A stretch of DNA of 63,135 nucleotides, the filler included, from Choristocarpus tenellus KU-1152 (taxonomy: Eukaryota; Protista; Phaeophyceae), in the NCBI GenBank assembly GCA_964200185.2. It is 11 parts of 11 records of this genome, joined end to end, with 100 filler letters (N's around TTAATTAATTAA, not from the genome) between each part and the next. Parts side by side here need not be neighbours in the genome. Positions count along the whole stretch, not along the records: positions 39,997 to 54,581 come from CAXNAD020001156.1; positions 54,682 to 60,493 come from CAXNAD020009692.1; 9 more parts are not named here. One strand, 5' to 3'. Position 1 is the stretch's first letter. Each line of letters starts with the position of its first letter. Made by a program: the position numbers and the translations under genes. Below the pieces are notes generated by a model. It was not told where the DNA came from. It ran no database searches and was given only the letters and a program-made list of their open reading frames with translations. Positions 41,016 to 63,135 of this stretch are shown one piece after another.

Positions 41016-44000
41016 TAGTTGTTTGAGGGACAAGATATATTACCGAGGGACAGAAGGCGCTTACAGAGATAACAAAAAAAATTAAAAAAAGAAAAGTGGA
41101 GTATCACAAAACAAATCATCTTAGGGAACATAAAATGGAAACACGAAAACGAAACTCTGTACTTTCCTCCTCATGGCGGCGGCGACAAAAACGGCCCACA
41201 ACACCCCTATCACTACCAAAATGTCCCCCCCTCTCACCCTGTGGATGAAGAGCCCCGGGCACACCATGGCGAACAGGAACCCTAAGACCAACTTCCTGCT
41301 AGGCAGACGATGCTTCCCAAGAGAAAAGATCCACTCCATCACATCAAACACCCCTCCACAAACCGAAAAGCTGAAATTCTTTCGCTCCATGACTGGAGCA
41401 ATATCGTAGTTTGCCTGCCCACAAGCACGCCAGAGGGATGTACACAGCAGACAAATCACAACAGTGAAGGGCAGACCCGCCGAGATAGAGGCTGACTGAA
41501 GGGCCGCAGTCCCACTAGATCCCCCAGCTTTGATGAGCCCTGTGGCGAGGCCTCCTTCTGTGAAGGCCCACAGGATACGCTGGGCAGGGTGCGTGCCCTG
41601 TAGAGACAAAAGTAAGGTTGGTGAGAGGACAAGCAGGAGAGGGGAGGGGGTGAAAGCCTGCCCAATCAATCTTCTTCCTTAGTGTGTCATCAGAATCACC
41701 AAGGCAACAAGTAGCTTCCCCCTTGCCCCCTTGCTCATTACCAGGGTATCAATAACATGTTGGCCGATTGTTGCCTTTGCCTGGCTGTATGATATGGCCA
41801 TGAGATACATCGTTGAAGAAGTTACATGTACCTTATATCAATTATTCTGCGTATGTCATAACCTGCATACCATTCCACTCCCCATGTTTTATACCTGTGC
41901 CAACTTGGGACAAATTTTCCTGCACCTGTAGCCGGTCGTCCCCTTTCCATAAGATAGCAGTGTTTCGTATACTGACACTTCTTACACGCACACACACAAT
42001 CCTGGACCCCATGTACCATGTGCAACATCAACAGTGTTCATCCCGTGTGTGGAAACATACCTCCTGACCATTGGCCGCAATATAGTCCACCACGAGAGAC
42101 CCACTATCAGATGAAGTGATAAAGTACAGAACGATGGTCACAATGCTGAGCCCACCAAGGAAGTTCCCCAGCCCATAGTATTGGTCCAAGAGCATGAACC
42201 ACGCAGTAGAGGACTCAGCACCAAAGAGGTTGCAAACAGGGCTATGTGCGGGGTTGTCCGTCGCATAACACCCGCTGTCAGCAAAAGTCTCGTCAACAGT
42301 CTGAAACCGAAGACGCGGAAAATCCGCAGAAAAGTCCAGGTATAGTGCCAAAAACGACAGGGAAGAAAGTGAGGCACCGTGGGGTATGGGTCGAGGGCAT
42401 GAGAAGGAACAAGTGGTCAAGATAGTAAAGCACTGGTATATCAGAATCTTGGTGGAAGGGCGTGCTGCACGAAGGCCACACAATTTAAGTTGAGGTATGT
42501 GTAAAGATGAAGGACAAAGATGCATGAGGTAGTTATGTTCTCAGTGAAGTGGCTTTCTTACCAGGTCAGCACTCAGGGTGGTGGCGGTGTTCTGCATCTT
42601 GATACCAGCACCACCAAAAACGGAAAACCACAATATCGCGTAGAGAAGAGGTGCGCTCAGAGAGTAGTGGATGACCTCACGTATCGAGCGTCCCCTGCTG
42701 ATGCGGGCCACAAACATGCCAACAAAGGGAGACCATGCAATCCACCATCCCCAGTAAAAGACGGTCCAATTATCCATGAAGTTAGGCACGGCCTGCAAAA
42801 AGGGTGGGTTACAAGAGGGCAAGGAGCAATCAATGGTGAACGAAATGGGATTATAGGTTTGGCCAACAGTCTTCATTGTCGTGTTCCTTGATTTTCAACA
42901 AGAGTTTCTGTTGGAAATAAACATTTTAGTTGTTTGTTCTGATACAAAAATTGGAGGTTTAGTCCCAAATACATCCCATCGAAACACTGGTTGAGGTTTA
43001 CATCATAATGTTATGAAAAGTAAGTGTTGGTGTAAGGCAAACAAGTAGAACAAGAACCATCATAGATACACACAACGAACCTTTATGTCGTTACCAACAG
43101 AGATTTTCTCTACTAACCAACTTTCACAAACCGAGTGTTACGAAGTTAGGAGAGGAGAAACGAAGTTATTCCAAGATTCTTGCAGGTTTCTTCGTGCCCA
43201 CTTAATCAGCGTCTCTAGTTTGAAACGCATCACACACATCATGAGATTCTTTGAAACGCCATTTACCTTACCACAAACTAAACTGTAACCATCTTAAACC
43301 TCAAACCGGATATCGATAGGTATCGATAATGTGTTTCCACAACCTAGTTCAAAGATACCTTCCTAAAATCCCTCACCACTCGAATCTATCATCTTACATC
43401 TTCGTCGAATCATTAAATAGTTGTAAATACTTCCACCATTAATAATAGTAATTCCGATATCAGAACATTTGGAGTGATTGATCGTTTTGATATGAATGGT
43501 GAGGGTTATACATAAATGGGAATGATATATCGTTAGGTATCTATCTAATAATGGACTTTTTCGACAAAAAGCAGAATAACAATGAAGACATAAACAATAC
43601 AGAGTATAAATATCAACAGATCATCCATGCAAGAGGCAGTGTAAATATCCAGCCGTTTACATCTACCAATATCTACAAACATCAACATTCTATGTAGAAC
43701 CATTCGAATCTGAATTCTAAAACATGATCATCTATTATCAATCTACCAATAGGGGTAAGGAATTTCAAAAGTACAACATTCTTCTCTTCGATTGATGATG
43801 GACAAATGAACAGCATTCCTAACTTCATGTAATAACTGTAAAGGAATCGCGGTACCAGTTATATAACAGTTCAAAATAACCTCATCCTCTTCGTTAGCGC
43901 ATCAAATTTAAACCACCAACTCAACAACCCGTGCACAGGTTTGGGGTCGTTAGTTTGTTATTCGGGTTGAGGTGTTGCGAGGGCGTGATACCAACAAACT

Positions 44001-47000
44001 ATGTGGTTTCTTTCATCGTCCATGTGGAAAATTCTTCAGTAACAGGCACTATATGTGGTGAAGTTTGTGTACTTGGCTCCCTGACGATTGCATTGTCTTG
44101 CATATTGTGAACAAGAGATCTTAACGTGTTGTACGCTTCGTAAATTTGATCGAACGAACACTTGTACCAATGTTTTTTTCTTGCGAAGCAGCTTAGGGAG
44201 CACTTTCACACATCAAAAGTTTTTGAAGGCGGCGGTTGCAATAAAAGGTTTGCTTTCTTCTAGTCAGTTGCTCAACTGTCAGTCCTGGTGACCGAGGTGA
44301 GATTTGAGAAGAGCTATCAGATGGATCTGCTACAAAGTGATGCTTCTTCCTCATTGCACCCTAAGGATCACTTCTATTTGAAATCCATACCTCTGACCAA
44401 ACATCAAACATCGGTATTTTATAGTGTTCAAATTTCGGGCTGCTGTGCTCTGTCACCAAGAAAGGACGTCAAGACATTCAATTCGTCTAGAGGTGGAATA
44501 GCTTGTTCACAAATGCTACGAAATTTGTCAACAATCGTTTTGGACAACCCTGTAAAAAATGTTCAACTCCCTATTAATCCAAGTTACGAAATCCTTATGT
44601 TTATCCACCAATACTAGGTATGTACGAGAATAAACTTCTCGTTCCTTCTCTGCTGCTCCATGGTCGTCATGGTGATCATGCAAGAACCGAAAAAAACACT
44701 TGTGTCAACAGATAATACTCAGCGTGCAATAGTAATCCCAACTAAAAAATATCACACCATCCCTTCTTTGTTACAATACAGACAGTACCATTTCTATTTT
44801 CCATCACAACAAATTAAGATTGTTGGTAGCATGGCTGTTTACATCTTCGGATGAAGTCCAACTGTTCAATAGGGAATGTCTTTGATTGGAGGTACTCGTG
44901 CTTAACTGCTTAAACATGTTATTTCTTAAATATAGTAATACAATGAAAACAGCGTTCTTTTGGACGTGGGCATAGATTTGTCACCATCGTTAACATCCCT
45001 TGCAGAGCACGTACCAAAAACAGCAGATTTTGGGATTATCTTGTTAAATACAAAAGTCTGTTCAGGGAACAAACCAAACCCAAACAATTTCCAAAAAAAC
45101 TTCAGTTCAAGACATACTTCAACTGTTGCAAATCAACATATTCCATCAATTTTAGCTAGTTGACTCAAAAGTGTTTCATGTACTCTGTTGAATCAAATCG
45201 TGCCCACAATGAGAAGCAAATCATTTGTCAAACACCCGTAGAATGTTGAACTGGTCATCAGGCATATTCATGACAAAAAATGGAAGATTTCTGATTCAAA
45301 GGGTAAATGATACTTGTTATTTCTTCTAAACATCCTTGAATCATCACTATTCACACCACTACAGGTGCATTTTTCACTTTATACGTTCAGTCAATATTTC
45401 CTTCCTGAAAGATCCCAATGACAACCTTCCAATATAAAAAGCTACCTTCCATTTCCTCTACAAGGGAATCAGAAAGAGGAAAAACAAAAATAGCTTTTTG
45501 AAAGCAAATTTCAGCAACCGCACTGTATGAAGCGTAATTTGGAAACAAATGTTGCAATAGTAACAGCAACAAAATACAAATCCTCACCAATCCGTCAGGA
45601 GCAGCCCCTCCACCTTCTGGAAGCTGTTGAAACGCATCTGTAATAAAGCTCAGTCCAACAACTGCAAAAGCAGGACAAGACACGACAAGATCAAAAAAAC
45701 ATCAACACGGTCAACTATGATTGCAATGCCTACACCACCAGTTTGCTACATGCAGCTGTCATGAATTTATCTTGCATCTGTGTGCATGTCAGTGTATGCG
45801 TCTGGGTATATGCATTTGATCACCATCACGAGCAGGATAAAAAAAAGAAGGCTCCTACGAAATATCAAAAGCACTACCAATTCATGTAAGAAATAAAATT
45901 AGTTAGCAAACCAAACTAGTGGTGTACCATACACAAGAGTTTATGCTATATTTTTTATCTGGATACCACAGCCTACATTCAACCAAGAAAAAGTATTCCT
46001 GTTTGCCCTCACTAGCTTTTGCCATGAATGCGCATTGTGAAATAAGGAAAGAAGGGTCTTGTCCACATCAAGCATATATTATAAGTTTTGTTTTCTTCAC
46101 TCAGTTATAGCCAACATTGATCAAGACAGCCATTCTTTAAGTGTATCCTTCACCTCACCTAATGTTGCACATCTGTGAAGGTCCAAAGTATATATATACA
46201 TCCCTTCTCACCATTCTTACAAGGTTTTGCCTAAAGGTTCTCTTGCCACAAAATATATTTTCACTTCCATTTTCTAGTAATGCTTTGTTCTTCTTTGCTT
46301 TAAGGCAGTAAAAAAGGTAAGTAGGTAGATGACGGTTTCCACACAACCCTAACCCTAACTACTCACTGTTCTGAAAGTAGTGGCCGATTGTCTGAGTCAT
46401 TGTGTTGAGCAGGAACCAAGTGTCATCTGCAAAAAAAACCACTGTCCACATGAGGCCTCCCATGATGAAGGCCACAGCAGACAGGTACTTGATCCCAACA
46501 TGGATGCCGCTCACAACACTAACGGTGGCCAGTGATGTTATCACCCAGATCATAACTGCAGAAATCATACAATGTGTGCACAAGCAAGAGTATGTATGCA
46601 TGAAGGAGAGCAAGTAAGTGAAAGACACTTTACGTAACCACTTATCACAATTTGCGGCTTACCCGTATCTACAAGAGATCTTTTCATAATGTCTCGCGTT
46701 CATATACTTAAATCCTCTACAATGTATTTTTCCAGTAGGCACTGCTGCAGTATAGCTCATTCTCATTTCATCAAAAAATTGGATGAATTACACAACTCCC
46801 ACCAACCAATACAAGGAATAAAGTTCAGCGATGCAAGCACTTAATAAAACATCTAACATGCGCTCACCATGCTAGATACACTACATTGGAAACACATTCA
46901 TTGTATGTATTTGTATAAAGTCCACAAACACGCCCCAAATCTAATCAACTACACTTTCTTAACACTCAAAAACAAGAAATGCAGGTACAATAACAGATTA

Positions 47001-48893
47001 AAGGAATATATTTTGTTATTTCTACTGAAAAAAGGAGTTTTTTAACCCCTCCACTATTTGAACCAATCTATATTGGTCTCTCACCAATGAGGACATTGGA
47101 GTGGGTGTCCTCATCCGTGCTGTCCCAGAGTCCGGGGTCAATCCACAACATTCCAGCCGCAATTTGCACCACACCAAGCCCTAGTGAAGTACACACGCCG
47201 GCAACCACAACAACTGCTCACACAAAATTATGGGGAAGGGTGATTTTCATTAGTGCAAGGGCAGTGCAGGATTTGTCACCTTCACAGCTGTCAAGAATCA
47301 CCCCTGTAGAACCATCTGTGGAGCCAAGGGTGTGCAGCTCGTGTGTTGTATGGAATGGATCATTCGCAAGCACACCTTCAATATTCTATTCTGTCAAGAA
47401 CCGCACCACTCAAGGTCTTCCAATTGGCAACAATTGGAATTAGTGGAAAGGATAAGATGCTACAGGGCAACATACTTTGGGTGCATTATGTGGTCAACGT
47501 ACATTGACAGCTACCAAGTAAAGAGGGATGCACCGATCGGGCACCTCGGTAGGTCAGCCGTGCATATATGTTATCTATCCATATCATGTTCCCATTCTTC
47601 CGAGGGAGAGAGTGCAAACCAGAACGACCTTCGGAAATTTCACTCTCATTAGAGAAACAGAGAAGTTGTCTGGAGGCAAAAGACACGTGAACAACGAGAC
47701 TGCAATTGCATTTACAACCCCTGCGAAGAAGGAAAGATCGCCACAATAATGAATGTACAGACCACCTATCCGTTGGTCTCACCGATGGAGAAGACGTCGA
47801 TGAGGTCCCCAATCCATCCGTTGACCTTGTTACCTATTAGCGGAAAGAAGCACGACCTCATAGACATAGGGAGACCCTAAACATAATCCCAAAAAAACAA
47901 AGTGCGGGGGTGAGAGAGGATACTACTGCATTTGCACTCATAGAAATGCTGCAATAAGGACGACGCCATCAATCTCGCCACGAGGCATCTTTGATGACGA
48001 CACGACTACCTATTGCCATAATATCTCGAATAAGGACCAACATCTATCACTCTTCTTACTCATTTTCTACAGAGTGAAGGGGTGAGATGGGACCAGGAAT
48101 AGAGATGGAATCAAGGAAGAAGGGCAGAGAGAGTACGCCTTTACCATTCGGAAGTGGACAAAGCCAAGGCAGCAAGCCACGATCGTGTAGGGAATCCACC
48201 CATGGACGCCCCAGTGGAAGATTGTCAGAGTCATCGCCCACTGCGCCCTCTCATTGTCCGTCCTGTAACCACCTATGGTATACCTGTTGTCGCCTTCATA
48301 CTGCCAAGCGAGAATGGGGAGAGGACAACCCATTAGGTACTCAACGCATCAGCAGCATGTAAGATATTCTTCGCTCTGCTTGGAACACGCTAACCTTGGA
48401 AACATGGTAAAATAACGGGACCAAATAGAGCAGGGCCAAACAGAAGACCATCCTGAGGAACCTTCTAGCCCCCCGACATAGGTGAGCCTGTGTAACTGTA
48501 TGTACTCACATGATAAATAGGCTCGTCCACTGCGAAGAAGAACAGACCAACCCCAACCCCAGCGCTAAAAATCATCATGAAGTATTCTATGTTGCTGAAT
48601 TCAGGTGGTTTGTCCTCACTACCCTTCGCACAGAGCTTCATTCCCCCATATTTGGAGAAATACAAGACAATGGCAAAGATAAACCATACATCCTGAGTTC
48701 CAATATAGAACCAGGTGAATTTGTCCGACACCCAGGTTCTCCAGCTCAACAGGACATCCAGGGCAGCGTCTGGACTACTCATACAATAAGCAGTCATACC
48801 CCATAAGCAGGCCATCCCCAAGAATGTCACGATAGGATTAAACCGTAAAATACCCCCATTCCATTCACGCGGACGTCCATCAACTTCTCCCAT
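40712..48893 (-). CDS. BCCT-family betaine/choline/carnitine transporter; exons 48893-48510, 48300-48145, 47876-47783, 47213-47085, 46555-46367, 45661-45588, 42792-42562, 42300-42061, 41597-41238, 40963-40712; last exon unresolved
   Basis: Family motifs: PEFS...[84 protein letters not shown] and [13 protein letters not shown]. All introns are GT-AG with compatible phases. Confidence 0.95.
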
Positions 48894-51800
48894 GTCTCTC
48901 TGGGATGAGCGACTGCAGAGTCTACCTCCCACCACGCGGAAGGAGATTGTTGTAGGCACGCAGATTAGTTGACTGGCACGATCTGGGCAAGTGTGGGAAG
49001 TGTGAAAGTCTCAAGTGGACGACGGGATAATTAAGAAGCGAGTATCCGGAATTTCAAAGCCGTTAACATTTCTATAAATTATAAATAATAATATCGTGAC
49101 TGGATTTTCGTGATTGCTCGGGCCCTAAATAGAAATTCCAATACCAAAATCGATTTTTTCAATAATAGCATGCATATACTAATCGTATTAAATGGTTCGA
49201 AATGTCATGTTCTATCCTGTATTGTAGAAGATCGTATATAAACCTGAACACTTCAATCATTAATACTATTATATCCTCTAACATTTTAGCGGTGTGTCAG
49301 AGAAAAAGTCAAACCAATATCACAATAAGCCCTACATAATATTATTGATCATCTACAAATCGTATATAAAATATATTGGATATTGAGGTATTTGATTTCG
49401 AATCATGAAGAGAAATAAATATGAAAGATTGATAATCAACTCTTAGTATGGAATGAATTGTATTATATTAAAACTACTACAACCATTGTAACAGTAACTT
49501 GCAAGATGAATTGACGGACCTTCAAGTAATAGAGAATGAGTTTGAAGTAGAGAGTGGAATCACATTAGAGTACCGCTCGCTTGAAAAATTTCATTATTCT
49601 GGAAATAATAGGAAGGTGGAAGGTGGTGGGTGGTGGGGGGCAACTAACTGACAAAGTTTGGGGAGATTTCTTGGAGGTTTGGAAGACAAACAACCATGGA
49701 AGTATCAAGAAGTGCCCACATTCCGTGAATGAGAGGCTTTAAAATCCATTCCAGAAGACAGATTTTCTGTTCAACTGAATCTGTAGTGTTAAAAATAAAA
49801 AGAGCATGAATTTTCGACTATAATTAAATCGATTGAAGGAGAAAATTTCGATCATTGAATTGAAGTGAGGGAGGACGAGGTATCAGTCCCAAATGTATGG
49901 CGGTTGTTGAGTAATAGACGTGAACAAAACCACAAACTTTGAGGAGGTAAATCGGAACCCCATCAACAATGAAATGTGTAGTGAGTGGTGGTGGGTATAA
50001 TGATACAATTTGTCAAGAATGTGTGTTACTATGATCTGTACGTCTTCATTGGTGACAATTTCAGTTATATTGTGATCGAAAATCATATCCTAATAACCTT
50101 AATGTTTCAGTTCAGGATTACGAGTTTTTCTTCTATTTTGTAAATCACCACAACAAAAGTATTTTTGTTGACTTCATTTGGATTAACTTGAATAATCGAA
50201 CAACTGAACTGAAGTTCAGTTGTCCAGTTTTCCGTCATCGTACACACCAGAAGTGTCACGATGATGGACGTGTGACAAGGTGACAGAAACATATATTGGT
50301 TGCAAGGTGTTGCTTTACAACTAACAACTCACCACACATTCAATAGTGATGAGTTGGGATTTACTCTACATTTTTGGATTGCATATATATGAGCTTGTTG
50401 GCGATTTGCGCGAGTTTCGTGTGCGTCACCATTGGTTGTTAGAGTTCAATTCGATTCAATTCGAATAATCGAAACTTTGATCTTTGTCGGTATGTCGAAC
50501 CTATCATCTCTTGTCATTGTCCACAAAGAACCATGTGCGGAAAGATCTGAATCATAGTGGGCGAAGAATCATTTTGGATAATATAGGAGTAGGTAAGGAT
50601 GACATTTGAGGGAGAGGTAGAACGTCTAAAGGCAGGAGGGGACAAACTCGACCGAGTGAAAATAAAAAGTCCACAACACAGAATCCAGTGAGCGGAATTG
50701 ATTGTAGTGCAACAGGTAGTTTGTAGGATAAAAGAAATAGTCGAGTATGCACTCAAATCTGACCACAGATTTAAAAAGTAGGTAGGGTAAATAAAGGTAG
50801 TGCGGAAGTTCCGGACAAGAATTGAGTAATAATAAAGAAAGAAAGGAAAGGGGGCTTGTCCGTACAGGTCGGTCCAAATTCTATCATGAAAATGAGGTCC
50901 AAACCCTGTTTAAAGTCAGATTTTCTTGACAAGAAATTGATGGACCACCTCCCAAATACATCGGGAAAATACACCTACTGTCTTAGTCGAAAAGACAAAA
51001 GAAACCGTGAATATCTGGATCATCGCTCTGCAAGGTTAGATTTTCTTCTACTAGATACGACTTTTGTATGGACCAGATTGGAATTGAGTACTTATGTAGC
51101 TTGGGTTAAACCACAAAAGAAACCTAGAAGATCTGGGTTGATGGAGTGTGCACTACTTTCAAGGGATGAGATGGGACGAGGAGTGCCAGAACTCCTGAAC
51201 ATAACACGCAAGAAAAAAACGAGCTAGGCAAGGGGGGGTGCAATTTGCTGTACTTATTGAACAAGAATAATTCGTAGGATAGAAAAAATAGTGTAGTGAC
51301 TACTGTGATCTGTGTAGTAATCAACGGATTGTTAGGGTGGATGTAAGTGGAAAAGCTTCCACACTAAAATTGAGTGAATTTTCATTATTTTGAGTCAAGC
51401 TACTTGAGAGGTACACAAATCCGGACCCTTTTTCTTCCTAGTTGATATTTTTTACCCTCTGAAATACCCTCTATTTCTTGACTTTATGGGTGCAATAGTG
51501 AATGCAAGATTGATATTTCCCCTTTACATATTCAACGTGACACCATAAATTCTTTCTCCAATAGTACATAATATAATATTTCTGCCCTTTCTCAGAATCC
51601 TTAGAATGCAACCCTCCTGGCTACCTCTCATAATAACATTATATGCATAGTAAACCACTCGAAAGGGTGTATGCACATCTCAGCTTGCATGGCCGTCTTG
51701 ACTAGTACACCTGCAAGATGGACCAGTACATTTTCTGCGGGGATCGAATTGTATCTGAAGAGGTTCGAATTAGAGAAGACAAAAACAAGGACATAATGCC

Positions 51801-52850
51801 TCTCAACATACCTGAAAATGAATCAGGCGCCAGTGTGATCAATAAGTATGCACGCAGGCAACCCGAATCGGAATCATTTGATTCCATACAGTAATAGTGT
51901 AAAATCAATAACTTTAGGATAAAGAAGTGGTTTTTAAGTTGTATTACGACTTCTGAAAACTCGACCCTTTCTTCAGAACTCTTGTCGTAACACACACCCA
52001 TCTTGTCAGTCCTGATCCATTGTCGTACACTTACCCTGAGAATAAGTATTTCTTCATCTGTCAACCTAATATCAACCATCTCCACTAGTCATCAGGCTTT
52101 TAAATACATCACATGTACCTTGTGAGTGTGTCGACGCCATCTACAGGCTTGTAGATTGGAGGTATCCATCCCGCACAGATAAGGTGTGAACTGTTTGTAT
52201 AACATGAAGGTCCTACCGAGGCAGTCAAATGACGAGATGCAGGCACACGAATGTTCATGGTCTTGGGGTAAGCCAAATAATGTTGGAGGTGTACCAGTAG
52301 CCAAGGCCATGGGATTGAATACGTAAGATACATGTAGGATGAAGGCTCATTATTAGGAGCTGCTCATCAAAATCTCACAAGAACCTCGAGACTGGTTAGC
52401 ACTTTGCTTCAGCTGTGCTCCAGAAAAGCCAGTACCCCAGAACAGGCCAGGTTGATGCCTTTGGCAGAAGGGCTAGACGACTTCGCTTTTTCTATCAACA
52501 AGAGAAAATGAACAGCGATTGGTAAGAGTTCGTGATGCCAATATAGGGCAAACTTAGGAGCACAGGAAACATTTGATGTACTTGCATAATAAATCTAATG
52601 GTATGGGCATGTGATATGTGATGTCTTCACTGTACACAGAAAAGTTGGGACTCCAAGAATATGTGTTACAGGCGATATGTCTTGATGGCGGTTTCATAAA
52701 CACCATTATGACACTGAAGTTCTAGATTTGATATATTTGTATTTATTATTTAGTTGTTATGGTCCCCGATTGTGAAAAAAGACATCGTAGACCAGTTCCT
52801 TTTTATACGATGGTATTGATGATAATCCAAGTGAGAGATCCAGCATACTT

Positions 52851-53030: not shown

Positions 53031-56000
53031 ACTTGACGACTTGTGCATCAGGAGTCCTATACGTACATCAGTATCATCTACAGACCCGTAGATTGGAGCT
53101 ATACATCCTGTGGAGGTAAGCTTTCTTTTCTGGGGCGACTGTAACATAATATGCTCTAACTTTATATTGCACTAGTACTCGTGTAGTGATCTAGTTCTGA
53201 CAGATACATCAGTATTTTAGATGGACAATAGGGTTCAGGTTTCTCCAAGACAAATACCCTCCTTGATTTAGTAATACCCCAAGACACCATCACTTTACAA
53301 GATATATCCGATTAGCGCACATGGAGAGAAGATTGTATCCTCTAGGCTAGACTCCAACAATGTAATCTATCAATCAGCTCCTCCGAACATCTGTATGCAG
53401 CTACATGGATTGTGTTGTATTGGAAATTCATGGAGGTAGAGTCAAGCACTTCCCCTCCTGCAATTGAGTCAAAGCTACTAAAAGATAGGCAGGGTTGTAT
53501 TGTAAGATCCCGAGAAACAGTAAAATTATGCATTTTGTACGATTGCAGAAAGAGCCCTTGCTCAACTATGGTGTCATACTGTGTTTGGAAAGGGGTAATA
53601 TATATTTTGCGTATACTAGCATGAACATGAAGCAGTGGAATATGGTTTATTGCGCAGGATGAGAAAGATTACTTAGAATGTAAAAAGATCCAAAACCTGC
53701 CTGCCTCTCAATTGGTTTGGCTCATTAATTATTGCTAGAGAACCCTCAGGGGGAAGAGCAGCACAAGGCCTTCGACCTATCCCTAGTCACACACTGCTTT
53801 GCCTTAACTTGATTTTGTGGAGCTGCAACCCTACCTCCGAAAGTTCACTGATAGAGCATTCAAATTATATATTTAGAATAATACACAACAGTAATAATAT
53901 GCAGTAGTGTTTTTTTTTCTGTGAACGAATCCTTTGCCCAGATTAAGATCTGCTTTGTACCCTCTCGACAGGTAGTCCCTCTAGAAAAAGTACAACAATA
54001 TCGGAGAAAAGGTAGCAGTTTCAACGAAAGAAGGAGCAGGCTTATTAGAACAACACCCAAGGTAAACAGATAGTGGAATATTGCACCCCAAGAGGATTTT
54101 ACGACAAGGGGATAGTATTTACAAGACATTTCCTTAGGATTGTGAATTATATGATCCCAAAAAGAAGTAGAGGATTCTTGTGGCATCGGTTAAGAACTGG
54201 GTTTGTCCTCTCTAGTGCATTAGGAGGTTTTCCCGCAAAGCCTTTGTGTCCCCACATAGACATAAATGATACATTTTGATTTTTTCTTTATACTTCTTTA
54301 CATATATTTATCAATTTCATTTTTTTTGGTTGGTCTCAACCACCTATTAAGATGTTTGAAGGCATTGTGCATGCTTGATGCTGGGGGGCATGGAATCGGG
54401 AATTGTTTTGCATTGATTAATCATTGAATGGTGCAGAAGTCTTGTGATTATTCATTGGCAAATTACACAAAGTTGACTCCGAATTGAACTTTGAGCCAAA
54501 GTATCTGTGGGGGGGGAGGGGTCTACACCAGGGTATCCATTTGGGACAAAATGAGGAAAAGTGCATTTACATTATCCATCCNNNNNNNNNNNNNNNNNNN
54601 NNNNNNNNNNNNNNNNNNNNNNNNNTTAATTAATTAANNNNNNNNNNNNNNNNNNNNNNNNNNNNNNNNNNNNNNNNNNNNGTCTTCGTTATCATCATGA
54701 GTGACAGAGTTGCCTTCCCTACAACAAACGATGCTGTTTTGTCATATCTCGGCTTTCATTGCTAATAGCGGGAATAGCCAAATTTCAACTCTGGGCAAGA
54801 TCTTGGTCACTCTGCACCTCGTTTCCACCTCCAACACGTGGCACTGTCGTAACCTACAGACTGGCTGGCGTCCTCGACATTGACTTCTTTCAAACTATTT
54901 CGCCATGCAAGCCGCCTCCATTAGACGTGTTCACCACGTTAACCGTATCGTTTGTTCTGTTTGATTGACAAGCTATCGTTCTTCCATTACACTCTCCCAT
55001 TTTTTACGTCACCGTCGTCCCCTCCTCTCCTCAACAACGTTCTCCGCCGTGTCCACCATCAGATTCTCGACTCTACGCGCTTACCTCACCACCTGGGATG
55101 GGAAATACCAGGATGTCCTCAGCCAAGTCAACCTCCATAAGGTTCACAGTGGGCGGGGCGGTGATGGCGGTGGCGCAGACGTCGAGAGCACCAATGGATC
55201 GGCATCAGATGGCGGTGAGAAATAAGACGAGGGAGGGTGCGAACACAAAGGACGGGACGAAGATGGGGGAGGGGACAGACTGCCAGGCAGGGAGGATATG
55301 GGTGAGGGGGGTTCTGTCGACAGCGTTCCTGGTGCGGAAGAAGAACAAAACGGCCATGGAGGGTGGAATGCGGGCGTTTGCTGTACTGAATGCAATCCTC
55401 CATCTACGTCTCGGTGAGTAATGTAGTTGTAATGGTGCACATGCGGATGGCGGGTAATTAATGGCGTAAGATTGGTTTTCATCCAATCCCCCGAATGGCT
55501 AACTAGGTTGTCTTGCTTCAGCAGTGCATGCCACCACACCGGTGGATCTTGCGGGATCCCTCTGTGTGTGGTGCTGCGGTCGCTACCCCCAGGTCTCTTT
55601 GTTTGCCACAACCCGAGTGTGTTAGTGCATATCGCAACCGACTGTTGTATCTCACCTGTACTTCGTATTGTTTTGTGCCACCAATTTCGTGGTCCTTCGT
55701 AGCCGTGGATCCCTGCGTTGCGTTGTTGCACCCAATTAATGATTTGGAAAAATGCTGCTCTGTCTATTTGACACTCTCGTTCGATGCCACGCGCGACAGG
55801 TATTCCTGCCCAAAGTGCTCCATCACGTACATGGGCAAATGTGCCAACGTGGAGATTGTGGGTGACGAGAGGCACAAGGATGGATTGTGTATCAATTGCC
55901 CTGTGGCACAGGAGGGCAGTGAAGGGACTGGACCGATGGGGAACGAAGTGGCGGGTTGGGGCAGGGGCAAGGGTAAGAGTAAAAATAACGCAAGGAGCGC

Positions 56001-58259
56001 GGGCGGGTCACCCACCAGGCAAAGCCTTTTACGTCCCCCCTCACGCAGTGAAACGGCGGACATGGAGAAGTGCATGTGGATCTCGGCGTGGTTGCACATT
56101 ATACGGACATACAAGTCATCTCTGCGTGTTCAGTTTCGCGTTGATTTGCACGTGGGTCTTGGTTGGTTGTACATCATGTGGATTGCTCGTCCTTTGTGTG
56201 TTCGGTATGACGTTTTTTTGGAGGTTTCCATGGGCCATGGAACTTACCTGTTTGACGTCTCCCTTCCTTCCACGAGATGTATCTGATGGGTCTGACGTTG
56301 TGGAGGGTACGGCTTAACATTTTGGGGATTCCGGGGAAATATTGTCAGGACCTCACTTAATGATACGATTGCCTGCACCGTTGTTTACGATGCTGTCCTT
56401 CTTGTTGTGCTGTCTGTGTACTGTGTCATGTGTCATGATGTCCAACCAGGGCTGAGAACACTGCACTACACGACCTTCGCCCTCTCGACCCGACGCTACC
56501 CTAAGGCGGCATGAAAGAGTTCGCCTTCCACAACACACCAAAGCTCGCCATAGTTGTCCATCACCGCCGAGCCAAGACTCAACGACGAAGAGGCGATCAA
56601 CACCCACTTGCGCCAGGTGATGAAGTGCTTGCAAGTGAAGATACATCCTCAGGGCACCATCGCGCTATGTGTGCCCCACCCGTGGGACATGCAATCACAC
56701 CGCCTACACGGTGAGTTGCAGAGTTCGCCAGCGCTAAAATACGGGGTGTATTGCGGGAGACTATTGCAATCCGCCATGGCCGTTATCAGTCCGACCGTGT
56801 GTCCATCGGAAATGGTGGCGGCCGTTCAGGAGATGCGGATTCTGTCGTATTTCCTTTTGGTGTCTTTTGCTCTTTCCCCCTGGGTCGCTAGTAGTTCTTT
56901 GTTTGATTGTCCGCGAATCGCATGCTGGTGTTACTTGTCTTCACTACATTATTTTTGCCGCCTTTCCTTCTATTACCGAATTTCCTATTGTTTGCATTTT
57001 CGCATTTGTTATTTGGCTTGCGTTCCACACTCATTGTACTATTATCATGTTAGTGGTATGCAATTTCATGAAGTGCAACGATACCGTACTTGTGTGCTGT
57101 CACTGTCAAGTTTGACGCATGCCAGACCCACGCGCTCGCTCCCGCCTTCTCTTCATTCAGGGGCGCTTATGTCGTCGAAGGTGGGCTTGGTTGTGGAAGA
57201 TCATCCCCTGCTTACAATGTACAAGATGAGGGAGGGGGGGCGCCCTCTCGCAGGCACTGATAACTATCTCAGATACCACCAGGACATGATTCTTCTCGCG
57301 CACAACGATGGGACAGAGTTCACATGCAATTAGTGAGTCACCGTCGACGACATTTTGGCCATGGGAGTGATCCATCTCCTCCGGTGCTCCAAACCATGTG
57401 TGACGTCAAGTACCAAGGTGCTGCGACGGACATCCCTATGAGGGCCCTCCACTTCCTCGTTAACAGGTTTGTTAATTACGTTACACACGCCCTTCTTCAT
57501 GGGAGCAACGACTTTTTTTGTATAGGTGTAGATCATCGTTAAACAGTAACGCAACAAGCTGGGTGACGGTTCAGGGGCGTCCGTACCATGAGTGTGTTTC
57601 CCTGAATCAGTATGTTAAGTGTCCAACCGCACCAAGAGTGTGTTGCCCTGTATCAGTATGTTACTCGTACATTGCCATATGATGAATCTGTGCGCAATGC
57701 AATATACTCCTCGAGATAATTTACGACCTGCCCTCCTATGATAGGTACACGAATCCTGGGGACACCGTCATCTCCTTCAGCGCAGAGAGGCACAACGTGA
57801 TGGAGGCGGCCCTTGAACGGAGCAGGAGGGTGGAGGTGTTCGTGTCCAACGTGGTGTCAAAGGACGACGCGAAAGAGAAGATGGAGACCTCCTTCGGACG
57901 AGCCTACAAGGGTGGCAAGTGGAAGGTAACAAGGGTGTGCTGGCTTTTTTCCATTTCTTTCCAGCTTGTTGTCTGTCTTGGTTCGCTATGGATAGGTGTC
58001 GGGCGTGGGGTTGTGGTAGTGATGTTTCCTTGTCCATGTTTACACGTTGCTAACACGGTGCACGTGGTGACCCACGCCACAAACGGAAATCGCGAGACCC
58101 CAAGACTTTGTGTGTGAGTGTTGGTACGTTGTAGTGTCCTCCTTCCCCACACGAAAAAACAAACGTACTGCGGTACACCCCAAGATCTTGAACCAACGCC
58201 GGAATAACCCCTCGTACGTGACATAACCTTATCGCATGGCAAACACTTCAATGCCACAT

Positions 58260-58518
58260 GAGTCAAAGTATCTTAGAGGGTAGAGCCGCGTCCATTTGGG
58301 GGCCAAAATCCAGTGTTGCGATTTTGATGAAAATTTGGCTATTGTGTTTGTTTGGAACTATCAATATATCCTTGTTCCGAACACACCTTTTCATAACATA
58401 CACATTTTCCTACTCCGAAACATTTTGGAGTAGGAAAATGTCATAAGCATTCCGTGGGAAGCCAAGCCCCACATGGACAAACAGGGCAAAATTCGTACCC
58501 TCTAAGATACTTTCACTC
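58260..58518. mobile_element. Complete 259-bp MITE, family A, with 4-bp TSD ACAT, intronic
   Basis: ACAT|GAGTCAAAGTATCTTAGAGGGTA ... TACCCTCTAAGATACTTTCACTC|ACAT. The 23-bp TIRs have one mismatch. Confidence 0.92.
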
Positions 58519-58815
58519 ACATGGTTGGGCTGTCACATGTACGCACATGGTTGGGCTGTCACATGTACGCACATGATGTTGCAGGTATCCACGTCTCTCG
58601 TTCAAGAACGTGTGATAGGCCCTTCCTGCCTGCCGGAAGCCTTGGGGCAGACCCTCGTCCCAATTGAGATGCAGCGGCCGTTAATCCTCAGGGAAAGGCA
58701 ATGGGACGCGATGAAGCCACCGTTTTCGTTGCGACAACGGTGGCGTCGGACTTCGGCTACCAGATCGAGGTGAATCTGGCATAGAATGCACTTCGTAACA
58801 TATTTGTCAAGAACG

Positions 58816-59072
58816 GAGTGAAAGTATCTTAGAGGGTATGAGTTTTGCCCTCTTTGCCCATTTGGAGGTTGGCTTCCCATGAGTTTTTTAATGACATTTT
58901 CTTACTCCAAAATGTTTAGAAGTAGGTAAAATGTGCATGTTATGAAAATGTGTGTCCGAAACATAGATATTGACACTTCCTAATATACGCAATAGCCAAA
59001 ATTACATCAAAATCGCAACNNNNNNNNNNCCGCCAAATGGACGCTGCTCTACCCTCTAAGATACTTTGGCTC
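58816..59072. mobile_element. MITE, family A, opposite orientation, intronic
   Basis: GAGTGAAAGTATCTTAGAGGGTA ... TACCCTCTAAGATACTTTGGCTC, the reverse complement of the 58260 copy. It has a small N gap and an unclear TSD. Confidence 0.88.
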
Positions 59073-60109
59073 ACGAACGGCAGAGTCACGCTCTTGACAC
59101 GCAGTAGACACGTATTTTTTTCTTCCCGAGTCCGAACCTATCTAATGCGGCACCCAAATATGTCGCGTAGAAGACTATTGGCCTTGCGGATAAGTATTGG
59201 ATCCGTCGTGTGTTCAACATTTGCCACGATAAGGTTGCCGTTTTTGCACCACCTTCGGTCGTGCACCTCCAAATTACGCCCATTAATGAATAACCGAACT
59301 CTGGCCCCCCCCCCAACACCCCTCCACCCCCCCCAACCCCACCGACGTCTTTGTCTTCCGCAATGCTCAACCGCATGCAAGCTCGTCCGCGAATCCCGCC
59401 GAAATGGCCTTATTCCGGCTTGACGGGAAAGACTACAAAGTCGGCGGAAATGACCTCCCTGCGTGGGGTGATCTCCAAGTGTGCAACTCTCGATCAGAGG
59501 CCTTCCGTTCGATCTCTCTTGACGACCAAGAAGAACAGTGCATTCGGCTGCTTCATGTGGCCAACAACCAGCTCAAGCGCATGCTTTCGCCTGGAACGGA
59601 GGTGTGTGGGCCGTGTGCAGAGCTCTACTTGCGCGTGGCAGCCACTTGCCCTCTCTACTACATGTGTTGGACTGAGAAGGCAGACGACGCCAATATGGAA
59701 TTCACGTCAAAAGTTCAGCAGAGCGGAAGCCGTGATGAGGTCCTCCTCCCCTTCTCCCAAGTTGGCCCCGGGCAGATGTTTGTCTCGCCCGTAGTCGGGA
59801 GGGTGTGCAAATCCCGGGCAAAGAATGACATGAGATCACCGTTCAACATGCTCCCGGGTCTTACGGTAGTGCGTTCTCATGGGTTTGAAGTGCGGGATTC
59901 AGACTCAGACTTGACGCCAATCACCACTAGAAAACACAAACGTCCCTCTTCCCGCACGGGTGGAAAGGGGAAAGGTAGCAAGGTGCGGAGGGGCGCTGGC
60001 GATTCTGCGCCGGAAGACAAGCCGGAGTATGTCAGTGACGTGGAGGAGGATGAGGAAGAAGAAGAGGAGGAAGAAGAGGAGGATGAATGGGATGACGAAG
60101 AGGAGTGTT

Positions 60110-60429
60110 TGTCCTTGAACGGCAAGCGCAGTGTCGGCGGTGAGCTGGTTCCCGTTGCCTAGGGAGTCTCGTTGAATGACGATGGACAGAGCAAACTGCT
60201 CAAGCCAGCCTTTTTCACGGATAGACTTGCTGACGCGTGCAAGGCCACGCTCGCTCAGGGGTCGCACCATCTCCGTGCCCGTGATGTTGCCGAGTTTCAT
60301 CTTGTACATGCCGAGGTAGTGCTGTTCGAAGAGCATGGACATGCCCTTGGCATTGCTGTCCAGTGCTCTCGATCCATGGGCAGTGCCATTGGTGCGCAGG
60401 GGGGTCGTTGTTGAGTGAATGTTGGACAT
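60110..60429 (-). pseudogene. N-terminal fragment of a ParB/Srx-like domain protein
   Basis: GCC-ATG at 60429 follows a pyrimidine-rich leader. EMVRPLSERGLARVSKSIREKGWLEQFALSIVI resembles ParB-N (R..s...l..L..SI...G.l.pi.V). The frame runs into the antisense of the acidic tail before any DGxHR motif. Confidence 0.5.
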
Positions 60430-61259
60430 GGCGAAGATTGGGAAGGTGTGACGGGGATAGATAAGAAAGAGCTGCTGGTGGTATGTGCGGAAGNNNNNNN
60501 NNNNNNNNNNNNNNNNNNNNNNNNNNNNNNNNNNNNNTTAATTAATTAANNNNNNNNNNNNNNNNNNNNNNNNNNNNNNNNNNNNNNNNNNNNCGGCACC
60601 CCCCCCCCAGATACTTTGACCCAAAACGCTAAAGAATCCAACACAACTAACCAGGTCTTCATTGGAGGCCTCATCGAGACGTTATGACAGATTAACCATA
60701 ATTTCCAGTATTTTTTTCCGGTTTTGTTGTTTTTACTAAATCTGCCATTTCCAACAAAAAACGTTTGTGTTCAGAGGGTGGTGTCTCAACCACATCGAAA
60801 TGAAAAAATATTTTGAAGATATCTATGCGAAGCCAATGTTGTTGGGTGTCGAATAATATTATTTGTAGTTTCTGAATCTCACATTAAAAAACGTTTTAAA
60901 AATAAACTTAATGATTCAGACTTATAGGACTGAGGGAGTATATGTTTAAGGAAAATCTGGGATTTTCGACCTTGAGAAAACCTAACCACGAGGGGAACAA
61001 TAGGTTGGGGCAAAGCAATTGAGAGGTAGTAAGTTTGGAACCTTTTGCATCCTAAACCTAAATCACCTCTCTTACTCTGTGCAATACACTCCATTTCATT
61101 GCTTTATGTGCAAAATGATGCTCGCAAAATGATACCCCCCTTTCATAGACAAAGTGACACACAATAGACAGAGGTTCTCTCTTCTATTTGATCACGACAC
61201 ACAAAATTCTGACAAGATTCCTAAAATTTCTCGTCCTTCCTATTTTTCCACTCCTTCTC

Positions 61260-63112
61260 CGCTCAGGGGGATAATGGTGGGTCCATTATCGATGGGATAC
61301 TTCAGTCAGCGATAAAGGTGTTGCACCACACCTCCTGTGAACTCCCCAGATGTAAGATACAACTCCAATAGATGTTTTGCTGCCTCAATTGCTTCCCTGG
61401 ACTCCTGTGGGTAAGCAAAGGGGAATCTTGATGTCATTCACAGTCAGTAGATACTTGTCAAACTGCGCTGGTATGTGTTCCACATCTTGTAGATCCAGCT
61501 CTTGCACATCTCATAGTTCTAGAAAGTCGGCTAGAAGCATTGGCGCCTGCGCACTCAATATATTCTTCCACCTGCAGCAGCCACCGTTTGGAACAGAATC
61601 CTGTTATCCTTGTGAAGAGAAGCCCAGAAAAATACCTTTAAGTAATGATAGTTACTAGTGCTATAATATCTGAGACTATAGAACGAAGAATTGCTCGCCT
61701 AGGCGACTGTTCCTTGTACGTATTCCACAGCAAACTCTTATAAACTAGGGGAAAACACTCTACACATACGATCCTTTTTTCAGCTTCTAGAGTAGACTTT
61801 TGAAGTTCCTGACCCAATAGGATGCTTCTGATATTAGTCAAGAAGGGACCATTCCTTTGCCTCTTTACAAACTCCGGCGAGTCGGAAAAGCTACCTCTCC
61901 CCACTTTCTTCTGCATCCTTTTGGTGGCGTTTTGTTCACGTATTTTCTTGAGTGGCAGTGTCTCTTTCGCAATTGCCCTCTTCCCTGTGTCCCTATTCTG
62001 AAAACCAGGGCCTACGCGTAGGTTCCCATTGGTTCCTGAGCCACTGAACGAATCGAGTGAACTGTTTTGAAACAGGGTTCAAGTTTGTGCCAGGTGTCGC
62101 ATCTGGATTAACCCAAAAGGGAGGGGTACAGGAGTTAGTAGAACTTGATCTTCGCGCCATCTGACTGGAAACCAGCCTCTGGTAACAGGGGTACGGGTAT
62201 CGTTCTGTGTGTGACAGATACTCAGCGCTGAAAGCAACTCTGGGAATGCAGCGCAGTCTGTGTCCTATTGTACTTTGTCTCCAGTCTAGATTGGGTTATT
62301 CATACGAGGGGAATCTATAAAACGTACAGAGTGAGATATATAACACAAAGTAGTTGACAGCTCACCAAATCAGACATGTCTCCAAGTCCAGAAGCACACA
62401 AAATGAAGGCTGGTGCTTTCGGTCCTGTATCAATTGAAGGCATGCTACTGACGGGTCAGCAAAACATTATTAATCTATTTCAGACCTGGTTTAGTTAGCG
62501 GAAAGAGTCGTGATAGGCCTCCTGGTAGCTGATTCTTCGAGCCTGACCACGACTTAAATCCGTGGTTCACGAGGCTGAGGTTCCACCTGTAAATCTTGGG
62601 GATGAGGTCGTAGAATCTAAATATCCATATCAGGGATATGCAGTTAGATAGTAGGGTAAATTTCCTGCCCTAGATGTAATAGCAGAAACATTCAACAGTC
62701 CACAATATAGCCATGGATTCTCTTTCAGTGGATGCCCTCCTTCTGTCTCCCAGAAGCCCCCTAAGATTGGCATGCACTATGACATGCTTTCACTCGTCCT
62801 CCTGCACCTGAGTGAGAGCAGCTCAGCTCCCTCATCACATGCATTTGTGTGACGGAGAAATGGCTTATCTCATTTAGGAAAGACACTATAGACGTATTTT
62901 TAGCTCTTCAAATCCCCCTTGCTGATCTGCTCCCCAAGGGATTTTCCTCTTCCTAACTATTATTGACTTATACCCCTTATTCCGGAGGACACCAGTCATA
63001 GGCGCAGCTATCTGACCAATATTGTCGACGAACTGTCTCATGTACCCTGTCATGCAAAGGAAGGTCCTCAGCTGCTCAACTCTGTATGGGGGGAGAGCAA
63101 GTTTGGCGAACG
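61260..63112 (-). mobile_element. Decayed Ty3/gypsy pol (RT thumb, RNase H, integrase)
   Basis: RT/RNase H: VEQLRTFLCMTGYMRQFVDNIGQIAAPMTGVL...IPWGADQQGGFEELK; STERESMAILWTVECFCYYI*GRKFTL...KIYRW...NQLPGGLSRL. Integrase: FLEP*DVQELDL...KYLL...KHLLELYLTSGEFTGGVVQHL. Domain order is RT-RH-INT; many stops and frameshifts. Confidence 0.88.
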
Positions 63113-63135
63113 ATGGGTAAAAGTATCTTGGGGGG

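What the first reader, a model, noticed from the sequence alone, without database searches (positions are those of the whole stretch)
55063..60429. Candidate chromatin system: (ParB)-PHD-amino-MTase-like-SET-like architecture within one contig
Seen: a histone-reader-like finger, a DNA-MTase-like fold, a lysine-MTase-like fold and a basic then acidic tail lie collinear on one strand with no spacer between them, and a ParB-like start sits beside them. Established: ParB-N plus amino-MTase fusions are common in phages. The bdelloid rotifer N4CMT (bacterial N4C-MTase plus chromodomain) is a precedent for coupling such an enzyme to histone marks. Ectocarpus lacks detectable 5mC. Inference: this may be a decayed copy of a multicopy, possibly transposon- or virus-borne, gene family linking histone marks to DNA binding or modification. 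I do not know a described protein with this exact architecture but cannot exclude one.
Basis: inference. Interest (0 to 1): 0.8.

Follow-up and report, generated by a model that had tools for sequence, protein, structure and literature searches.

The report
Broken algal transposon pseudo-methylase cargo gene
This is a broken copy of a many-copy brown-algal gene whose protein joins a ParB-like DNA-binding start, a zinc finger, a predicted DNA-methylase fold and a predicted histone-methylase (SET) fold; the usual catalytic motifs of both folds are missing across the family, so it likely works as a transposon-carried tether rather than an enzyme, a design already half described in algae.

Summary
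The architecture is real. Contig 54682-60493 holds eight plus-strand exons of one spliced gene, broken by four stops and three frameshifts, with two MITEs in introns. Gene models from five brown-algal genera tile ParB/HTH, finger, MTase and SET segments in this order. An AlphaFold model of the Scytosiphon relative gives a beta-class amino-methyltransferase fold (Z 20.4) followed by a SET/PR fold (Z up to 9.3). DPPY, FxGxG and NHSC motifs are missing where expected in all 130 aligned sequences, so both folds are likely pseudo-enzymes. The finger is not a canonical PHD and some members lack it. The 'ParB start' is the gene's own 5' end, present here inverted on the minus strand against the 3' tail and cut just before its DGNHR motif. 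ParB+methylase transposon cargo is published for Ectocarpus Sola1-1 (1,104 aa, possibly this family), and methylase+SET cargo for red-algal Plavaka elements. This scan also noted Sola ParB-methylase cargo in other genomes. The four-part, doubly degenerate form was not in the papers searched. The carrier transposon's ends and transposase were not seen. New variant of a known kind; interest 0.42.

The parts
54860..54944 (+). probable exon, end of the helical region after ParB-HTH (weakly supported)
   Evidence: AG/GT ends; 7 of 14 residues match Ectocarpus P0156/P0031, E 0.23; covered by run contigs
55063..55413 (+). exon: end of helical region, acidic/Gly linker, first CxxC pair of the finger; in-frame stop at 55223
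   Evidence: AG/GT ends; matched by Choristocarpus P0152 at 65%, whose model reads this exon in another frame
55800..56075 (+). exon: second half of the cross-brace zinc finger (Tyr where relatives have His) and basic linker
   Evidence: matches P0001, P0152, P0011, P0121; 7 of 168 stored proteins carry the pattern
56450..56710 (+). exon: start of beta-class amino-MTase fold, motif IV position degenerate; stop at 56502, frameshift near 56554
   Evidence: one X3 contig skips the preceding intron, 56076 to 56453
57161..57466 (+). exon: middle of MTase fold; stops at 57331 and 57334, frameshift near 57355
   Evidence: X3 joint 56708 to 57160
57745..57925 (+). exon: SAM-binding half of MTase fold, motif I position degenerate
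58260..58518 (.). MITE inserted in an intron; GAG...CTC ends, 4-bp ACAT target-site duplication
   Evidence: hundreds of loose ends with unrelated flanks at both edges; related copies elsewhere in the window
58585..58769 (+). exon: linker and start of SET-like domain; frameshift near 58675
   Evidence: 85-94% identity to Choristocarpus P0005 in two frames
58816..59072 (.). second MITE of the same family in opposite orientation, in an intron; holds the 10-N scaffold gap 59020-59029
   Evidence: 81% inverted match to the first MITE
59371..60162 (+). last exon: SET/PR-like fold without NHSC motif, basic stretch, acidic run, stop at 60160-60162 (exon start inferred; acceptor not canonical in this copy)
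   Evidence: 64% identity to P0001 over 194 aa; fold; motifs
60104..60429 (-). inverted copy of the gene's own 5' end: first ~108 codons of the ParB-like domain, cut just before DGNHR; overlaps the last ~19 codons of the + strand tail
   Evidence: 77 of 106 residues identical to the N-terminus of P0152, then 1 of 16 after residue 109; loose ends in X1, X2 and X3 continue this frame into DGNHR

Best explanation
The locus is a broken copy of a spliced, many-copy brown-algal gene that is likely an accessory (cargo) gene of a giant DNA transposon and whose roughly 1,150-1,200-residue product likely tethers to the element's own DNA and chromatin without methylating anything. Shown: one gene, domain order, many copies, wide spread in brown algae, loss of the canonical catalytic motifs, decay of this copy. 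Predicted: beta-class amino-MTase fold and SET/PR fold. Inferred mechanism: the ParB-N/HTH part binds motifs in the element; the MTase fold serves as a nucleic-acid-binding or dimerising platform (as METTL14 does, recalled); the SET fold and, where present, the finger contact histone tails or host chromatin proteins; the complex shields the element from silencing or assists transposition. The inverted ParB piece at the 3' end is a second copy of the gene's own 5' end, left either by a rearrangement or nested copy or by a long terminal inverted repeat of a non-autonomous derivative.
For: One gene: P0152 joins ParB start, HTH region, the 55063 exon and the 55800 exon; P0156 joins the HTH region to the whole MTase fold; P0001, P0011 and P0154 join finger, MTase and SET; X3 contigs skip three introns. 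Many copies: 213 clusters at 50% identity; four Choristocarpus models cover the same last exons and six Ectocarpus CCAP 1310/34 models fall in three clusters plus one fusion; 722 diverged contigs of run X1 lie on one 594-bp stretch. Folds: pLDDT 80.8 model; CcrM Z 20.4, rmsd 3.3, 223 aligned; PRDM11 Z 9.3, rmsd 2.4, 119 aligned. Motif loss: 0 of 130 rows hold (D/N/S)PP(Y/F/W) or NH(S/A/C); the two FxGxG-pattern hits lie outside the MTase domain; other positions stay 80-97% conserved. Precedent: ParB+MTase cargo of Sola1-1_Ec32 and MTase+SET cargo PAG2.
Against: No transposase, element end or target-site duplication for the carrier lies in the contig, and no flanking DNA of relatives could be fetched. 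No palindrome or motif array that the ParB part could bind was found in the contig. No single stored model holds all four parts end to end; the architecture is tiled from overlapping models. Motif positions were placed from secondary structure and one weak 23-column anchor to E. coli YhdJ (probability 0.25%), not from a residue-level structural alignment. Many of the 130 rows are fragments or decayed copies (27-36 rows cover the MTase motifs). Binding and anti-silencing are untested.
Confidence: 0.55

Rival explanations
1. Transposon cargo, but enzymatically active: the MTase fold still transfers methyl groups to DNA or RNA by a non-canonical active site (or the SET fold methylates a protein), marking the element as proposed for Sola1-1_Ec32 and PAG2.
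For: The full beta-class fold is kept (Z 17-20 to CcrM, M.BceJIV, N4CMT). The first motif IV position is S, N or D in 23 of 30 rows. One Laminaria member keeps recognisable SET motifs, Pfam SET E 0.017. The published Ectocarpus protein was predicted to make 4mC or 6mA.
Against: The PP and aromatic residues of motif IV and the glycines of motif I are absent in all rows that cover them; a conserved Glu, Arg or His fills the SAM loop. No PF01555 hit at E up to 1-10 for any of the proteins scanned.
Confidence: 0.15
2. A host gene family of chromatin readers that expanded by segmental duplication or was domesticated from a transposon, with this copy one of many pseudogenes.
For: Present in Discosporangiales, Ectocarpales and Laminariales genera; intron-rich; spliced forms exist; brown algae are reported to have two lineage-specific SET families, whose identity I could not see.
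Against: Hundreds of diverged contigs per stretch, introns included, and frequent fragmentary or internally deleted models such as P0010 look like a repeat family. ParB+MTase genes described so far in algae ride on transposons.
Confidence: 0.15
3. On the inverted ParB piece only: it is a family-wide long terminal inverted repeat (at least 390 bp) that captured the promoter and first ~108 codons, so a transposase-less derivative reads into its own antisense start and could make hairpin or antisense RNA.
For: The genome of organism A holds the uninterrupted form of the same sequence, running on into DGNHR. The break is sharp at 60103/60104. The tail of P0003, an unrelated record, resembles the window's antisense-derived tail (198 of 10,000 shuffles score as high; best antisense compatibility, 6 of 14, at the predicted offset).
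Against: Contig depth across 60080-60099 is 14, 0 and 0 in X1, X2, X3 against hundreds to thousands on the arm, so the junction may be rare; but the tool skips the repeat at 60035-60089, which can hide it. The P0003 signal is weak. Tails of P0007 and P0020 end differently.
Confidence: 0.3
4. The contig is a chimera of collapsed repeat copies, so its exact layout (above all the inverted ParB piece and the join at the 10-N gap) is an assembly product.
For: Short contig of a highly repeated family; scaffold gap inside a MITE whose flanks are not an exact duplication; no run contig spans the stretch.
Against: Exon order and frames agree with independent gene models from other genera, so a chimera would not change the architecture; the tail/arm junction lies in ungapped sequence.
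Confidence: 0.15

Closest known systems
Accessory gene of Sola1-1_Ec32, Ectocarpus (Dinatale et al. 2025, PMC12477816; section 5, passages and supplement rows read; FASTA supplements and figures not seen)
   Same: Brown alga; spliced accessory gene; ParB-like domain plus N4/N6 DNA methyltransferase domain; 1,104 aa against about 1,150-1,200 aa estimated here; proposed to bind its own element. May be the same family.
   Different: The text names no SET fold and no finger and predicts methylating activity; here a SET fold follows the MTase fold and both lack catalytic motifs. No transposase, 282-bp TIR or 4-bp TSD could be tied to this gene.
Plavaka accessory genes PAG2 and PAG3 of Bostrychia and other red algae (Petroll et al., bioRxiv 10.1101/2025.02.11.637652; passages read, supplements closed)
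   Same: PAG2 joins an N6_N4_Mtase domain and a SET domain; PAG3 has a ParB-like N-terminus; both are mobile transposon cargo.
   Different: There ParB and MTase-SET are two genes and PAG2 gives InterPro hits to PF01555 and PF00856. Here they are one polypeptide, too diverged for Pfam cut-offs, with no 2OG-oxygenase domain and no palindrome array in the contig.
Bdelloid N4CMT (Adineta vaga; PDB 8s9n; paper PMC8885841 seen as search listing only)
   Same: Same beta-class amino-MTase fold (Z 17.6) in a eukaryote, next to a possible chromatin-binding module.
   Different: N4CMT is an active host enzyme with a chromodomain (recalled); this family is multicopy, has ParB and SET parts and lacks the catalytic motif.
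Phage and bacterial ParB-N + N6_N4_Mtase fusions
   Same: Atlas structure neighbours of P0001 and P0152 include ParB_N + PF01555 clusters; likely the ultimate source of the N-terminal two thirds (inference).
   Different: Intron-less, catalytically intact by family annotation, no SET fold or finger.
VANC anti-silencing proteins of VANDAL transposons (named in the Bostrychia preprint passage; details recalled)
   Same: Transposon-encoded protein that binds its own element to counter silencing: the working analogy.
   Different: Unrelated domains; activity shown there, untested here.

Membership tests
beta-class DNA amino-methyltransferase (N6_N4_Mtase, PF01555) | permuted Rossmann fold of the beta class | tested here: met
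   predicted model of P0001, residues 75-326: CcrM Z 20.4, rmsd 3.3, 223 aligned; Foldseek E 9e-10
beta-class DNA amino-methyltransferase (N6_N4_Mtase, PF01555) | catalytic motif IV (D/N/S)PP(Y/F/W) | tested here: not met
   0 of 130 rows; consensus after the strand is S/N-I/L-G/A-A in about 30 covering rows
beta-class DNA amino-methyltransferase (N6_N4_Mtase, PF01555) | SAM-binding motif I FxGxG | tested here: not met
   consensus at that place is S-L/F-S-A-E-R-H in 27-28 covering rows; the 2 pattern hits of 130 are SET-region fragments
beta-class DNA amino-methyltransferase (N6_N4_Mtase, PF01555) | Pfam profile score above cut-off | tested here: not met
   no PF01555 hit for window segments or relatives
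beta-class DNA amino-methyltransferase (N6_N4_Mtase, PF01555) | methyl transfer to A or C | not testable with these tools
   needs biochemistry
SET-domain lysine methyltransferase | SET/PR fold | tested here: met
   29 of rows 21-50 align to model residues about 340-575 and are SET/PR entries by title or recall; best Z 9.3, rmsd 2.4, 119 aligned. Single Z values of 7-8 are within the chance range the tool names; the family-wide agreement and P0131's Pfam SET E 0.017 carry the call
SET-domain lysine methyltransferase | RxxNHS/C and ELxF/YxY catalytic motifs | tested here: not met
   NH(S/A/C) in 0 of 130 rows; G(E/D)E(L/I)xxxY in 1 of 130 (P0131); the consensus is C-P-x-Y-(Y/W)-x-x-W
PHD finger | C4-H-C3 zinc-ligand order | tested here: met
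   four Cys from the spliced 55063/55800 exons, then His (Tyr in this copy) and three Cys; second half seen in 7 of 168 stored proteins
PHD finger | canonical C-x4-H-x2-C spacing and Trp of the methyl-lysine cage (recalled consensus) | tested here: not met
   spacing is C-x3-H-x3-C with no Trp in all 7
PHD finger | profile or structure match | tested here: inconclusive
   no Pfam PHD hit; FYVE E 0.025 for P0011; stored proteins hold only the second half and the finger was not folded
ParB/sulfiredoxin N-terminal domain | D-G-x-H-R motif and ParB-like fold with following HTH | tested here: met
   DGNHR in P0152 and in run loose ends; Atlas neighbours ParB_N by features (0.91-0.93, low shared counts) and structure (TM about 0.5). 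The window's own piece stops before the motif
ParB/sulfiredoxin N-terminal domain | Pfam or PHROG profile match | tested here: inconclusive
   no ParB hit for P0152 or the window piece
Sola1-1_Ec32-type transposon cargo | ParB-like plus amino-MTase domain in one spliced gene of about 1,100 aa | tested here: met
   against the description
Sola1-1_Ec32-type transposon cargo | linked Sola transposase, terminal inverted repeats, 4-bp target-site duplication | not testable with these tools
   contig ends inside the element; no genome held; no related loci returned
Sola1-1_Ec32-type transposon cargo | sequence homology to the published 1,104-aa protein | not testable with these tools
   the FASTA supplements cannot be read here

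The most novel reading that the evidence does not exclude
Brown-algal transposons have kept, since before the split of Discosporangiales from other orders, a single protein that fuses the red-algal PAG3-type ParB anchor and PAG2-type MTase-SET module, has turned both methyltransferases into non-catalytic readers in a lineage that lost DNA, H3K9 and H3K27 methylation, and uses it as a self-recognising anti-silencing scaffold; one derivative regulates it through a terminal repeat that mirrors the gene's own start.
Probability: 0.25. Interest if true: 0.72.

Novelty: new variant of a known kind. Interest (0 to 1): 0.42.

Why it matters
Two recent papers propose that algal transposons carry ParB, DNA-methylase and SET genes to mark their own DNA. 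This family suggests that in brown algae the methylase and an overlooked SET fold are fused behind ParB and have lost their catalytic motifs. If the published Sola1-1 protein belongs to it, the 'writes 4mC or 6mA' reading would need to become 'binds without writing'. That is a direct, cheap test. It also offers a candidate transposon counter-silencing factor in a lineage whose silencing relies on H3K79me2 and small RNAs. The locus itself is a dead copy in a fragmented assembly, so its value is as a pointer to the family.

Tried and rejected
Pfam on raw window ORFs and single exons gave nothing. Single-sequence AlphaFold of P0001 failed (pLDDT 34.9); only the alignment-based model was used. Sequence searches of the PDB with alignment A2 and with P0152 found nothing meaningful; PHROGs gave only weak hits. 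A second word-index search with P0001 returned only itself among 7,993 candidates. No related loci in viral contigs (three scans) or metagenome contigs (two scans), so a viral origin is unsupported and element ends could not be seen; no genome is held. No RNA holder was listed by the run search; the kind of X1-X3 is not on record, so X3's intron-skipping contigs may be RNA or intron-less DNA copies, and summed depth was not used as copy number or expression. A search for palindrome or k-mer arrays in the contig with MITEs masked found no palindrome more than twice and no 8-10-mer more than four times. Profile alignment to E. coli YhdJ gave only a 23-column weak anchor. dN/dS could not be computed: no intact DNA copies were available. 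Look-ups of earlier findings by sequence and by place were empty, as was one word search. Rejected: separate genes for each domain (overlapping models tile them); ParB piece as an independent short gene (it is a truncated copy of the family's N-terminus); giant-virus gene (intron-rich, no viral contigs).
Full report
Setting. The window is a string of short contigs joined by N-linkers; the finding lies in contig 54682-60493, which has one internal 10-N gap at 59020-59029. No whole genome is held. The closest named proteins are Choristocarpus tenellus gene models at 72-88% identity, so the source is probably an early-diverging brown alga rather than Ectocarpus (inference).

One spliced gene. The last exon found one relative among 873 candidates, Scytosiphon promiscuus P0001. 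P0001 aligns back to six + strand segments in order, from the finger to the tail. Seven of eight inferred exons have an AG acceptor and all seven introns a GT donor; the last acceptor is not canonical in this copy. Contigs of run X3 skip three of the introns: 56076 to 56453 (absent from X1 and X2), 56708 to 57160, and 55382 to 55815, the last lacking 15 bases of my exon start. The kind of X3 is not on record. The minus-strand ParB-like piece found one relative among 246 candidates, Choristocarpus P0152, which begins with that piece, goes on through DGNHR and an HTH-like and helical region, and ends in the 55063 and 55800 exons. It reads the 55063 exon in another frame than I do; my frame carries the first CxxC pair and joins the next exon in phase. 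Ectocarpus P0156 links the HTH region to the whole MTase fold, and P0001, P0011 and P0154 link finger, MTase and SET. No stored model holds all parts. The eight exons sum to 2,447 bases; with about 355 residues upstream from P0152 the protein would be about 1,150-1,200 aa (estimate).

This copy is dead. It has stops at 55223, 56502, 57331 and 57334 and frameshifts near 56554, 57355 and 58675. Run contigs differ from the window at some of these places in nearly all their depth (57331, 56554), so these lesions are not shared by most copies. Two MITEs of one family sit in introns.

Many copies, wide spread. A full HMMER search with P0001 gave 213 clusters at E up to 0.001, 96 up to 1e-10. Of 20 representatives looked up, 12 carry names: Choristocarpus, Discosporangium, Ectocarpus, Undaria and Laminaria; 8 are unnamed. 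Several models come from the same named species or strain. In run X1, 722 contigs lie on a 594-bp stretch, 61/180/328/153 in the identity bands 99+/95-99/90-95/under 90, and all 30 bins of the contig, introns included, are covered in all three runs. The three runs come from one study and are one line of evidence.

Folds. AlphaFold on a 130-row alignment gave mean pLDDT 80.8, pTM 0.55. Residues about 75-326 match beta-class amino-methyltransferases: Foldseek E 9e-10, VIA Z 20.4 to CcrM, 17.6 to bdelloid N4CMT. Residues about 340-575 match SET/PR domains in 29 of rows 21-50, best Z 9.3. That Z is modest, but a Laminaria member, P0131, keeps visible SET motifs (Pfam SET E 0.017, under the cut-off). 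For P0152 the Atlas lists ParB-N clusters by features and by structure, as leads with TM about 0.5.

Catalytic motifs. None of 130 rows has (D/N/S)PP(Y/F/W). At motif I the consensus is S-L/F-S-A-E-R-H. NH(S/A/C) is absent from all rows and G(E/D)E(L/I)xxxY is present in one. Only 27-36 rows cover the MTase motifs and many rows are fragments, and the motif register rests on secondary structure plus a weak anchor to YhdJ. Still, 28 other columns are 80-97% conserved, so the folds are kept while the active sites are not. The finger's second half appears in 7 of 168 stored proteins with C-x3-H-x3-C spacing and no Trp; P0031, P0156 and P0159 span the same linker with no CxxC at all. It is an optional cross-brace finger, not a shown histone reader.

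The inverted ParB piece. It matches P0152 at 77 of 106 residues and then stops matching (1 of 16 after residue 109). Loose ends at 60104 and 60113 in X1, X2 and X3, read on the minus strand, continue the frame into DGNHR, so organism A holds the uninterrupted form. The window joins the piece, inverted, to the acidic tail, and the + strand stop lies inside it. This fits a long terminal inverted repeat that captured the gene's start, a nested or rearranged copy, or a collapsed assembly. Against a family-wide repeat: depth over 60080-60099 is 14, 0 and 0, although the tool skips the neighbouring repeat. For it: the tail of P0003 resembles the window's tail weakly (198 of 10,000 shuffles). I leave this open.

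Literature. Eight searches. PMC12477816 (section 5 whole, passages, supplement rows; FASTA files and figures not seen) describes a 1,104-aa ParB plus N4/N6-methyltransferase accessory gene on the 21.5-kb Sola1-1_Ec32 transposon and proposes that such proteins bind and modify their own element. bioRxiv 10.1101/2025.02.11.637652 (passages; supplements closed) describes PAG2 (PF01555 plus SET) and PAG3 (ParB plus 2OG oxygenase) on red-algal Plavaka and other elements. PMC4738411 (passages) lists ParB-HTH and PHD-type fusions of other adenine methylases but not this one. PMC13076208 (section 6, passages, supplement search; one file not searchable) reports loss of DNA, H3K9 and H3K27 methylation and two brown-algal SET families that I could not identify. 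bioRxiv 10.1101/2024.02.19.579948 (passages) reports DNMT1 in Discosporangium. Iyer et al. 2011, cited for green-algal cases, was not seen. None of the text read names ParB, finger, MTase and SET in one protein or the loss of both active sites; unseen supplements could. Earlier notes of this scan report Sola ParB-methylase cargo, some without the catalytic motif, in plant, liverwort and animal genomes; they are unchecked, and their palindrome arrays have no counterpart in this contig.

Verdict. A real, decayed member of a large brown-algal family that most likely is transposon cargo of the Sola1-1/PAG kind. What is added is the fusion of ParB with MTase-SET, the SET fold, and family-wide loss of both catalytic sites. 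Mechanism (self-binding, non-catalytic chromatin tether) is inferred, confidence 0.55. New variant of a known kind; interest 0.42.

Noticed in passing
window 58260-58518 and 58816-59072; related ends near 5645, 6493, 10169, 12964, 34862, 52846, 54489: Very abundant MITE family with GAG...CTC ends; the first copy has a 4-bp ACAT target-site duplication. Such ends and a 4-bp duplication recall Sola2 elements (recalled, not tested). Many contigs of the window break at these repeats.
   Followed up: partly
whole window; contig 54682-60493: CpG observed/expected is 0.45-0.76 in the ten other contigs and 0.87 here. Of 60 listed differences at 70% share or more (from 65 rows taken from the cut tables), 33 are window C-to-T or G-to-A type and 19 of these are at CpG, against about 32% background (p 0.002). 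This suggests past or present 5mC in this alga, unlike Ectocarpus, and fits DNMT1 reported in Discosporangium.
   Followed up: partly
protein P0010 (Ectocarpus sp. CCAP 1310/34): Gene model joins the helical region behind ParB directly to the SET-like exon: an internally deleted derivative without finger and MTase.
   Followed up: no
protein P0131 (Laminaria digitata): The only member seen with recognisable SET motifs; its subfamily (with P0099, P0151) may be closest to the ancestral or still active form.
   Followed up: partly
window 41124-49010, - strand: Exons of what reads like a BCCT-type (betaine/choline/carnitine) transporter gene; named by eye from the translations, not searched.
   Followed up: no
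window 26470-30680, + strand: Exons with a Cys-rich stretch that recalls a Zn2Cys6-type DNA-binding domain, in a multi-exon gene; not searched.
   Followed up: no
window 35056-36347, + strand: 430-aa open frame with five 117-bp (39-aa) tandem repeats at its start.
   Followed up: no
window 129-716, - strand: Exon with an ankyrin-repeat-like stretch; not searched.
   Followed up: no
window 50800-52350 and 61100-63135: Decayed LTR-retrotransposon-like coding fragments (polymerase- and gag-like wording in the translations); not searched.
   Followed up: no
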